Shown here: positions 311 to 999 of the stretch, one piece after another
How positions within the stretch are numbered: the first letter of the stretch is position 1
Layout: each line of letters starts with the position of its first letter
IMG/VR virus record: IMGVR_UViG_2923360383_000006
Reading direction: 5' to 3' (one strand)
Source: a virus
Lineage: Duplodnaviria; Heunggongvirae; Uroviricota; Caudoviricetes
Length of the DNA stretch: 11,057 nt
The notes under the pieces: model-generated
Told to the model about the DNA's origin: nothing
The model's database searches: none
What the model saw: the letters and a program-made list of their open reading frames with translations, nothing else
Made by a program: the position numbers and the translations under genes

Positions 311-999
311 TCCCAAAATCTATTAGAAACAATAAGCCACTAAAGAAAGAGCTTTTGCTGGCTACAATACTCACATACAAACAATTTTTATTTTTCGCGG
401 GCGTAAAAAAACGATGGGGCTGGCAGTCCGGAAGACGTCAGGGTACAGAGATTTGACCCGCCCCTCCCTGTGCATGAGCACAATAAGTAACCGAAGGCGG
501 TATTCCGCCCTCGGTACTTACATATGAGAAACGATATTTCTTCCACCGATACCCTTTATTTGGGTATCGCGAGTAAGCCCCAAAATCTGGGTGTTGCTCT
601 TACTACCCAAACTACGGGTAGTTTCCGTAGTTTCATGGTCGAGTTGCAAATCTGCAACTCACCCACCCGCCAACCCATTTTTGGGCCGTCGGGAATATCA
701 ACAAGTTAGCACAGAAATAACTCAGGCAGATACAAAACTCAATTTTGAGGTTTGCTTATTATTCAGTTGGTTAACATCCCTCAAAACTGAGGGCTGTACC
801 CAAAGCTATTTTTATAGCTCCGGCCTCAGCCGTTGGCTGTTCCTGAAAATATCAGTCAGTTACGTTAACCGCTAATTTCTGCCTTTGGTGTGAATACTGT
901 CGCTTTAACCTACGGTAATTGTTCTGCCTCGGTGCATGTCACCGCCGTAACCGCGCCAGTAAACCCCACAGATTCGTGGTTTTCCTGAATATCAGGAAT

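What the first reader, a model, noticed from the sequence alone, without database searches (positions are those of the whole stretch)
540..850. Cluster of at least seven short perfect hairpins in non-coding DNA at the presumed island edge
Within ~300 bp: GATACCC-N7-GGGTATC (548-568), CTACCC-N7-GGGTAG, GAGTTGCA-AATC-TGCAACTC (8-bp stem), CCCTCA-AAAC-TGAGGG, AGCTA-N6-TAGCT, CAGCC-GTT-GGCTG, plus a tandem GTAGTTTC repeat. Two stems share a TACCC/GGGTA core and two share CTCA/TGAG. No ORF with a credible RBS was found. Candidate explanations: a structured ncRNA, binding sites for a dimeric protein (att arm sites, partition or regulatory), or a host intergenic repeat.
Basis: seen in the sequence. 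Interest (0 to 1): 0.5.

Follow-up and report, generated by a model that had tools for sequence, protein, structure and literature searches.

The report
Conserved hairpin tail of phage satellites
The hairpin cluster is real and is the non-coding tail behind the last gene of a phage-satellite island (PICI); it contains an undescribed 118-base unit that is almost identical in about 13% of complete E. coli genomes, and its function is still unknown.

Summary
The hairpins are real: 14 perfect stem-loop hits against 2.1±1.8 in shuffles, the densest cluster in the window.

The window is an ~11.4-kb PICI-type satellite inserted at tRNA-Ile (ileX). Its true edge lies about 640 bp left of the cluster.

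The cluster is the untranslated tail behind the island's last gene, an orphan 93-aa Arg-rich protein on the minus strand. It has three parts:
- Three copies of a repeated unit, "TAACT…TGATATT + stem-loop". One stem covaries between islands.
- A discrete 118-nt core (543-660) with four stem-loops. It is 93-99% identical between islands whose adjacent gene is only 79-100% identical.
- A small hairpin plus a GC-rich, terminator-like hairpin (490-540).

The core occurs in 722 of 5,426 complete E. coli genomes. It sits in three PICI classes with different integration sites, nearly always downstream of the same gene.

It is not a host repeat, an att arm site, a cos site, an Rfam family or a coding region. 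A P27/SfV-type cos lies next to it at 383-468.

My best reading is a structured 3' end of the late-operon RNA, with moderate confidence. A DNA protein-binding array and a recombination linker remain open. The prototype EcCICFT073 lacks the core, so it is optional.

The parts
543..660 (-). 118-nt conserved core with four consecutive stem-loops. On the minus strand: H4 GAGTTGCA/TGCAACTC at 660-641; H3 AAACTACGG/CCGTAGTTT at 633-609, or the alternative ACTACCC/GGGTAGT at 622-602; H2 around 604-574; H1 CGATACCC/GGGTATCG at 569-547.
   Evidence: Unit boundaries are defined by a tandem duplicate in L026. Most columns are >=90% conserved across 55 unique copies. It is 93-99% identical where the adjacent gene is 79-100% identical. 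There is a single copy in the window (nhmmer). It occurs in 722 of 5,426 E. coli genomes. No Rfam hit.
665..708 (-). Repeat module copy 3 ('hairpin A'): TAACTTGTTGATATTCCCGA followed by stem-loop CGGCCCA-AAAA-TGGGTTG. It lies directly upstream of the core.
   Evidence: The stem changes by compensatory substitutions between islands (CCCA/TGGG, CGCA/TGCG, GCGG/CGCC, GTGCA/TGCAC). Helices 1-2 have 7 pairs with changes on both sides. In the simplest islands it lies directly after the stop codon of the 93-aa gene.
709..868 (-). Repeat module copy 2 plus cassette. It starts with TAACTGACTGATATTTTCAGGA and hairpin CAGCC/GGCTG (839-827). It also holds AGCTAT/ATAGCT (819-804), CCCTCA/TGAGGG (793-778) and CCTCA/TGAG (about 750-733).
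   Evidence: Module copies were found by motif scan and by direct-repeat families D4, D9 and D10. This stretch is absent from the simple arrangement (gene-to-core distance 88-97 nt) and present where that distance is 388 nt. The same module occurs in E. albertii and Salmonella-type loci.
869..1003 (-). Repeat module copy 1, starting at the stop codon (TAG ATTCCTGATATTCAGGAA, palindrome 982-998) and followed by cassette sequence. Boundaries are approximate.
   Evidence: Homologous cassette sequence occurs in L095 and L101.
490..540 (-). Small hairpin GAAA-TATCG-TTTC (540-528) and GC-rich, terminator-like hairpin ACCGAGGGCGG-AATA-CCGCCTTCGGT (515-490) with a tail TTACTTATTGTG.
   Evidence: Flagged as terminator-like on the minus strand. 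Present after the core in most copies; replaced by other hairpins in the L009 type. The G·U pair at 510/495 is compatible only with the minus strand in 28 of 33 sequences.
1000..1287 (-). Gene for the orphan 93-95-aa protein (phrog_1561) with an invariant C-terminal Arg-rich tail, RRR…RR…Y.WKKPERLRR. The hairpin tail follows this gene.
   Evidence: Found upstream and co-oriented in all but one copy that has enough upstream sequence (the exception, L048, is). No Pfam or PDB match. Helical model with pLDDT 70 and no fold match. The family is narrow: 39 clusters among 1.8 billion representatives. One partial match among deposited phages.
383..468 (-). Adjacent cos site of the P27/SfV/ST64B type. 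It is context only, not part of the hairpin element.
   Evidence: 81-92% identical to the termini of SfII, SfV, SfI, ST64B and others, and to the annotated 'cos-site' of phiP27. It follows the core in only 32 of 97 copies.

Best explanation
The cluster is the structured, non-coding tail of the late (capsid and packaging) operon of a PICI-type phage satellite.

Reading the minus strand, the last gene encodes a 93-aa Arg-rich orphan protein. Behind it come:
- one to four copies of a repeated unit, 'TAACT..TGATATT + stem-loop' (three copies here);
- in about 70% of E. coli islands that carry this gene, a discrete and almost invariant 118-nt unit with four stem-loops;
- a small hairpin and a GC-rich, terminator-like hairpin.

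I infer that the region is transcribed with the operon. As RNA, it would form the 3' end of the transcript, stopping read-through into the neighbouring cos site, accessory DNA and att, and blocking 3'-exonucleolytic decay. The invariant core would additionally be recognised in a sequence-specific way by a partner. The co-inherited Arg-rich protein is the obvious candidate.

Shown: the anatomy, distribution, linkage to the gene, conservation, covariation of one stem, and exclusion of the att, cos, host-repeat and coding readings.

Inferred: transcription, the RNA-level action and the partner.
For: Linkage and orientation:
- The 93-aa gene lies upstream on the same strand in all but one copy that has enough upstream sequence.
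- It sits at discrete distances: 88-97 nt, or 197-572 nt when cassettes intervene.

No promoter-like site was found in window 1-1400, which is consistent with read-through from the operon.

Stem-loop A:
- It starts right after the stop codon.
- It keeps its pairing through compensatory changes. Observed pairs with changes on both sides: 10 against 4.6±1.3 in shuffles; 92% of cells pair against 32-46% for slid partners.

The minus strand folds better in 32 of 33 homologues, mean -86.9 against -77.8 kcal/mol.

Several one-sided changes are G·U only on the minus strand:
- 630/612 in 14-17 sequences.
- 569/547, with the series CG, UG, UA.
- 510/495 in 28 of 33 sequences.

A terminator-like hairpin closes the unit on the minus strand.

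The core is 93-99% identical where the neighbouring coding gene is 79-100% identical. That indicates constraint.

The region is non-coding and matches no Rfam family.
Against: - There are no expression data.
- Inside the core the helices hardly vary, so covariation says nothing about them (helices 3-8).
- Variable columns are about as frequent in stems (40%) as in loops and linkers (about 51%), which suggests primary-sequence constraint rather than structural constraint.
- The strand test by G·U against A·C counts is mixed overall: 12 against 16 pair positions. The L007 lineage has an A·C in H4, and RNAalifold slightly favours the plus strand.
- The terminator-like hairpin has a poor U-tract, and the L007 type has none.
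- EcCICFT073, a fully functional PICI, has the repeat modules but no core. E. albertii and Salmonella-type islands also lack it. The core is therefore not required for the basic satellite life cycle.
- No complementary target longer than 10 nt was found in the island.
Confidence: 0.45

Rival explanations
1. The element acts as double-stranded DNA: an array of protein-binding sites. Two 21-bp palindromes share TACCC-N7-GGGTA half-sites with centres 54 bp apart, and there are further palindromes. The binding protein would be dimeric, such as the adjacent 93-aa protein, a terminase or Rpp-like factor, or a nucleoid protein. It would act in packaging or regulation near the right end of the packaged genome.
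For: - The core is conserved as primary sequence in stems, loops and linkers alike.
- Two palindromes share the same half-site and spacing.
- The element follows the terminase or Rpp genes and lies about 75 nt from a P27/SfV-type cos in a third of copies.
- The G·U strand test is inconclusive.
- A Dam site (GATC) sits in the H4 loop in 45 of 55 copies.
Against: - The cos is next to the core in only 32 of 97 copies.
- The core lies on the side of cos that corresponds to the phage's right genome end, with the left end and terS on the other side. In lambda the terminase-binding cosB lies on the terS side (lambda layout from PMC6739421), so this is the wrong side for a cosB-like site.
- The L007 lineage has lost the left half-site of the second palindrome through a 9-nt deletion, and changed the first palindrome asymmetrically (C to T and G to T).
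- The protein has no recognisable DNA-binding fold.
- EcCICFT073 is packaged and transferred without the core (PMC6092414).
Confidence: 0.25
2. The element has no dedicated function. It is a recombination 'linker' and scar region. The tail is where accessory cassettes are swapped between satellites. The core is kept similar by frequent homologous exchange or gene conversion among co-resident islands. The hairpins are leftovers of terminators and repeated gene ends brought in by cassettes.
For: - The structure is strongly mosaic, with sharp breakpoints exactly at the core's two ends. At least four different sequences follow the core and four precede it.
- Cassettes of many lengths are flanked by direct repeats of the gene's 3' end.
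- Tandem core duplicates flank an iteron segment.
- Core identity correlates weakly with gene identity, r = 0.27.
- The core is dispensable in EcCICFT073.
Against: - A neutral linker should not be several times less divergent than an adjacent coding gene under selection, across three PICI classes and many insertion sites.
- The extreme hairpin density and folding z-scores, and the covariation of stem A, indicate that structure is selected.
Confidence: 0.2
3. The element is a single-strand initiation (G4-type ssi, priming) signal. The hairpins would persist on SSB-coated single-stranded DNA and recruit a primase during rolling-circle replication of the island.
For: - The island encodes a primase-family protein and an SSB.
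- Its origin carries nine TGTTCACC iterons.
- A unit of about 120 nt with several hairpins resembles the G4-type origins. This resemblance rests on my own knowledge and was not tested.
Against: - No sequence similarity to any deposited phage, including microviruses.
- The element is linked to the 93-aa gene, not to the replication module. It also occurs in PICIs where the fetched stretches show no SSB.
- EcCICFT073 replicates without it.
Confidence: 0.04

Closest known systems
Lambda nut site (boxA + boxB) with the N protein's arginine-rich motif
   Same: A short conserved linear motif is followed a few bases later by a small stem-loop. The stem sequence drifts by compensatory changes while the A-rich loop stays. 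This sits next to a gene for a small protein with an Arg-rich helix containing Q-W-K. The comparison with N rests on my memory of its sequence.
   Different: The loops are AAAA or AAAU tetraloops, not the GNRA-like GAAAA pentaloop. The motif lies at the end of an operon rather than the beginning. The Arg-rich segment is C-terminal. There is no sequence homology to N and no boxA consensus on the transcribed strand. None of this was tested experimentally.
REP/BIME-type or terminator-type 3' stem-loops that stabilise upstream mRNA
   Same: Clusters of short GC-containing hairpins lie immediately after the last gene of an operon, on the transcribed strand.
   Different: This is not a dispersed host repeat: it has one copy per island, occurs in only 13% of genomes and is absent from K-12. 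It also contains a 118-nt unit conserved in primary sequence, which simple stabilisers do not need.
The cos1/cos2 sites and Rpp-specific cosB of EcCICFT073 (PMC6092414, PMC6739421)
   Same: Both are satellite-specific non-coding DNA in the packaging region of E. coli PICIs, and the sequence differs from that of helper phages.
   Different: The lambda-type cos copies of this island are elsewhere, at 1923-2016 and 4458-4551. The hairpin cluster has no cosQ or cosN motif. EcCICFT073 itself lacks the 118-nt core.
P4 CI immunity RNA with its seqA/seqC targets
   Same: A small structured RNA processed from a longer satellite transcript and acting within the element. Homologues have been reported in some PICIs (PMC10111431).
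   Different: There is no Rfam hit to the C4/CI family in this region. No complementary repeats were found in the island. The position is at the operon end, not in the leader.

Membership tests
Host intergenic repeats (REP/BIME, ERIC) | Many dispersed copies in the core chromosome of essentially every E. coli strain | tested here: not met
   Present in 722 of 5,426 genomes, median one copy and at most six. Absent from the K-12 empty site. Two patterns found no match in 185,579 species-representative genomes. In the copies examined it lies in satellite islands, nearly always behind the same gene.
att arm-type integrase or excisionase sites | Sites specific to one integrase or att type, lying within a few hundred bp of the crossover core | tested here: not met
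   The same core occurs in islands at ileX, fis, tqsA, thiM and inside prophage genes. It lies about 640 bp from the attL core. A different repeat, CCAGGATACYTATAGGATACC, flanks both att ends of the ileX island.
Lambda-type cos site (cosQ-cosN-cosB) | A cosN-like GGGCGGCGACCT with an upstream cosQ (TTTACGGGTCCTTCC) | tested here: not met
   No cosN-like match within 540-850 at up to 3 mismatches. The cosQ/cosN-like 94-nt repeat lies at 1923-2016 and 4458-4551 (motifs from the PMC6092414 supplement).
P27/SfV-type cos site | Homology to the termini or annotated cos of P27, SfV or ST64B-type phages | tested here: not met
   The homology covers window 383-468 only. The query 530-710 has no match in 50,697 phage records.
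Any curated RNA family (Rfam 15) | Covariance-model score at or near the gathering threshold | tested here: not met
   No hit in the core. The best hits in 470-1010 have E = 1.5-3.1 and lie far below gathering scores.
Intrinsic (Rho-independent) terminator | GC-rich stem-loop followed by a U-tract on the transcribed strand | tested here: inconclusive
   Hairpin 515-490 on the minus strand passed the simple scan, with 11 pairs of which 8 are GC. Its tail is TTACTTATTGT, and the L007-type homologue has an A-rich tail.
Lambda N/nut-type antitermination module | A boxB stem-loop with a GNRA-like pentaloop bound by an arginine-rich motif; a boxA element; location upstream of terminators to be overridden | not testable with these tools
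   The stems covary and the loops are A-rich, but they are tetraloops. The Arg-rich tail is conserved. No boxA lies on the minus strand. Binding and antitermination need experiments.
Small protein-coding gene | An open frame with excess synonymous change and a ribosome-binding site | tested here: not met
   All six frames show synonymous/non-synonymous ratios near the neutral expectation. One homologue has a 1-nt deletion. The frame's C-terminus changes with the flank. No CDS is annotated there.

The most novel reading that the evidence does not exclude
The orphan 93-aa Arg-rich protein and the RNA tail behind its gene form a satellite-specific RNA-protein module. The tail comprises the repeated 'linear motif + covarying stem-loop' units and the invariant 118-nt core. 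The protein would bind these hairpins on the late transcript. In an N/nut-like or ProQ-like fashion it would control the transcript's fate: read-through across att into int in the excised circle, mRNA stability, or release of a stable core RNA that acts on the helper phage or the host.
Probability: 0.12. Interest if true: 0.7.

Novelty: new member of a known kind. Interest (0 to 1): 0.45.

Why it matters
PICI satellites move virulence and defence genes between enterobacteria, and their cis-acting DNA and RNA is poorly mapped beyond att, ori and cos.

This analysis defines a non-coding module that is found almost only in these satellites: one partial protein match and no DNA match among deposited phages. 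Three satellite classes share it: the Rpp type, the DUF1441/capsid-fusion type and the capsid-forming type. Its 118-nt core is far more conserved than the neighbouring gene and occurs in 13% of complete E. coli genomes.

If it is functional, it is either a new structured RNA of satellites or a new protein-binding site. Either way it is a convenient sequence marker for the gene end of these islands and for the hotspot where accessory cassettes are inserted. It can be tested directly by deletion in existing PICI-helper systems.

Tried and rejected
- **Host repeat family:** rejected on copy number and distribution.
- **att arm sites:** rejected.
- **cos site:** the lambda-type copies are at 1923-2016 and 4458-4551, and the P27/SfV type is at 383-468. 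Neither overlaps the cluster.
- **Rfam:** nothing.
- **tRNA or tmRNA:** none.
- **Small ORF on either strand:** no coding signal.
- **Own promoter:** none found.
- **Trans-target by complementarity within the island:** only chance-level 9-10-mers.
- **Known EHEC sRNA Esr41:** it lies in a different island, SpLE1.
- **Exact-sequence literature search:** no paper.
- **Function of the 93-aa protein:**
  - No match by Pfam, PDB sequence, AlphaFold plus Foldseek, or a 1.8-billion-protein HMMER search.
  - PHROGs places it only in a family of unknown function (phrog_1561).
  - It remains an orphan confined to enterobacterial satellites.
- **Strand assignment by G·U against A·C counts:** inconclusive.
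- **RNAalifold consensus:** small covariation term and long-range pairs that I do not trust.
- **Locating EcCICFT073 by a published primer arm:** BLAST found no match. The island was then reached by coordinates.

Full report
**What the window is**

The window matches E. coli APEC 16-1068 at 100% identity. It is an island of about 11.4 kb inserted at the 3' end of tRNA-Ile (ileX).
- K-12 carries the empty site, and its similarity stops 3 nt after the tRNA.
- A 47-nt copy of the tRNA's 3' part is repeated beyond the integrase gene.
- The left edge of the island therefore lies about 96 nt before window position 1.

All annotated genes are on the minus strand:
- integrase, 9630-11057;
- an Icd-like protein and a DUF4222 protein;
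- a primase-family protein and an SSB;
- a 68-aa protein;
- a ClpP-protease/major-capsid fusion, 2026-3939;
- a DUF1441 (TerS-like) protein, 1284-1856;
- a 93-95-aa hypothetical protein, 1000-1287.

This is the gene set of a Gram-negative phage-inducible chromosomal island (PICI) as described in PMC6092414 and PMC6739421.

- Perfect hairpins are 7-30 times more frequent than in dinucleotide shuffles. No shuffle out of 1000 reached the observed count.
- The stretch holds 7 of the 23 hairpins with stems of at least 6 bp in the whole window.
- Both strands of 486-712 fold far better than shuffles, with z about -7 to -8.

**Anatomy**

Comparison with other islands resolves the region into units. 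Reading the minus strand from the stop codon of the 93-aa gene (1000-1002):

1. *Three copies of a repeated module.* Each begins (G/C)TAAC/G…TGATATT and contains a short stem-loop (copies start near 1003, 868 and 708). In the simplest islands a single copy, 'hairpin A' (here 708-665), directly follows the stop codon, and the core follows 88-97 nt after the gene. Here two extra modules and cassette sequence (709-1003) are inserted. They contain the hairpins at 778-793, 804-819 and 827-839.
2. *A discrete 118-nt core, 660 to 543.* It has four consecutive stem-loops. Its ends are defined by a tandem duplicate in L026 and by the points where different flanks begin.
3. *Two closing hairpins.* A small hairpin (540-528) is followed by a GC-rich hairpin (515-490) that the simple scan classes as terminator-like on the minus strand.

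**Distribution and linkage**

- The core is found in 722 of 5,426 complete E. coli genomes, usually once per genome.
- It is also found in 85 IMG/VR contigs.
- It was found in no deposited phage and in none of 185,579 species-representative genomes.
- It occurs in three PICI classes, at different insertion sites (ileX, fis, tqsA, thiM, or inside prophage late genes):
  - Rpp/EcCICFT073-like islands (L003, L007, L048);
  - DUF1441 plus capsid-fusion islands (this window, L006);
  - capsid-forming PICIs with HNH, TerS and TerL (L004, L005, L008, L009).
- In all but one copy with enough upstream sequence, the 93-aa gene lies upstream on the same strand.
- About 1,025 genomes match the 300-1300 stretch that includes the gene, against 722 with the core. 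The core therefore accompanies roughly 70% of these genes.
- EcCICFT073 itself encodes the protein and three repeat modules but has no core. The same is true of E. albertii and Salmonella-type islands and of a 47%-identical homologue.
- The repeat-module array is thus the general feature behind this gene. The core is a frequent but optional addition.

**Conservation**

- Relative to the window, the 93-aa gene of other islands is 79-100% identical at the nucleotide level. The non-coding core stays at 93-99%, apart from truncated copies. The two measures correlate weakly, r = 0.27.
- No reading frame shows a coding pattern.
- Within the core, variable columns are almost as common in stems (40%) as in loops and linkers (about 51%). 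The helices hardly vary, so covariation is uninformative there.
- Hairpin A, in contrast, keeps its pairing through several compensatory substitutions.

**Which strand, RNA or DNA?**

Evidence for the minus strand:
- constant co-orientation with the gene;
- position directly after the stop codon;
- no promoter-like site;
- lower folding energy in 32 of 33 homologues;
- several frequent one-sided changes that remain G·U only on the minus strand.

Evidence against a firm call:
- the overall G·U against A·C count is mixed;
- RNAalifold slightly prefers the plus strand;
- the L007 lineage breaks H2 and carries an A·C in H4.

I therefore rate an RNA-level role on the minus strand as the best reading, but only moderately supported.

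**What it is not**

- *Not a host repeat family*.
- *Not att arm sites.* It is shared by islands with different att sites, and it is 640 bp from the crossover core. A different repeat flanks both att ends.
- *Not a cos site.* The island's two lambda-type cos copies are the 94-nt repeat at 1923-2016 and 4458-4551. They carry cosQ- and cosN-like motifs like those published for EcCICFT073 cos1 and cos2. A third cos, of the P27/SfV/ST64B type, lies at 383-468, about 75 nt from the core. It accompanies the core in only 32 of 97 copies.
- *Not in Rfam*.
- *Not a tRNA or tmRNA*.

**The neighbouring protein**

- It belongs to phrog_1561, of unknown function.
- It has no Pfam or PDB relatives.
- The model is helical, with pLDDT 70, and has no fold match.
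- Only 39 clusters were found among 1.8 billion representatives.
- It is essentially absent from bona fide phages.
- Its C-terminus, RRR…RR…Y.WKKPERLRR, is the most conserved part. From memory it resembles arginine-rich RNA-binding motifs such as that of lambda N. This is a lead, not a test.
- In PMC6739421, the EcCICFT073 genes located after the ori were cloned individually, and none except rppA blocked lambda. This gene lies in that region, so it was presumably among those tested.

**Verdict**

The finding is a real, satellite-specific, apparently undescribed non-coding module. It is most likely the structured 3' end of the late-operon transcript, carrying an optional and highly constrained 118-nt unit whose partner is unknown.

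Two rivals remain open: a double-stranded DNA protein-binding array, and a recombination linker with no dedicated function. The core's absence from the functional prototype EcCICFT073 shows it is not essential for the basic satellite cycle, which tempers the interest.

Noticed in passing
window 1923-2016 and 4458-4551: A 94-nt direct repeat (89% identical) carrying cosQ-like (TTTACGGGTCCTCCC) and cosN-like (GGGGCGGGAGCGG) motifs on the minus strand. These are two lambda-type cos sites, one upstream of the capsid gene block and one upstream of the DUF1441 TerS-like gene, as reported for EcCICFT073 cos1 and cos2. One copy is homologous to the right end of mEp460 and cdtI-type phages.
   Followed up: partly
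window 383-468: A third cos site of a different type (P27/SfV/SfII/ST64B), 81-92% identical to phage termini and to the annotated phiP27 cos-site. The island thus carries cos sites for two unrelated terminase systems, which suggests it can be packaged by two kinds of helper phage.
   Followed up: partly
window 116-259 (+), terminator hairpin 278-297: An unannotated 47-aa ORF (MDTLRKGSDLLSARVIAVTGLIAALGNLGLCPIAVVLVCIALVIMLK) with a GGAGG ribosome-binding site 7 nt upstream and a strong stem-loop after the stop. The C-terminal half is hydrophobic. It may be a small membrane peptide or toxin in the accessory slot next to attL. No Pfam or PHROG hit.
   Followed up: partly
window 5287-5507: Nine copies of the octamer TGTTCACC on both strands (expected 0.37) just downstream of the primase gene. 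This is the island's replication origin. From memory, the octamer is the same as the iteron of the satellite P4 ori/crr.
   Followed up: partly
window 8159-8231 (+): A sub-threshold Rfam match to the SymR antitoxin RNA (34.7 bits, E = 0.0015, gathering score 61) in the regulatory region between the Icd-like gene and the YlcI/YnfO gene. It may be a small structured RNA. PMC10111431 reports P4 CI-like RNAs in some PICIs.
   Followed up: no
L001 13548-13575 and 24709-24740 (just outside the window's left end, and window about 11108-11139): The repeat CCAGGATAC(T/C)TATAGGATACC..GAAGTATT occurs near both att ends of the ileX island and again in another ileX island (L099 3240-3262). These are candidate integrase or excisionase arm sites.
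   Followed up: partly
L026 (minus strand) 7836-8400; also L015, L043, L065, L086: Two copies of the 118-nt core, 434-436 bp apart, flank a segment with three direct and three inverted TTGCGGGTTAT iterons around an AT-rich centre. This looks like an ori or a cosB-like protein-binding region. The same iteron segment occurs without the core in a Salmonella-type island (L100).
   Followed up: partly
L004 2760-3090 and L026 (cassette between the two copies of the repeat module): One of the cassettes inserted behind the 93-aa gene carries, on the opposite strand, a 44-aa Cys/Trp-rich hydrophobic ORF (MLWAFCLAGGCGWTLIFAYHF…) followed by a terminator-like hairpin. At least some cassettes in this slot may therefore encode small peptides.
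   Followed up: no
L104 3290-3345 (EcCICFT073): In the prototype EcCICFT073, a lambda-type cosN (GGGCGGCGACCT), read on the opposite strand, lies immediately upstream of the 93-aa gene. Three repeat modules follow the gene, but the 118-nt core is absent.
   Followed up: yes
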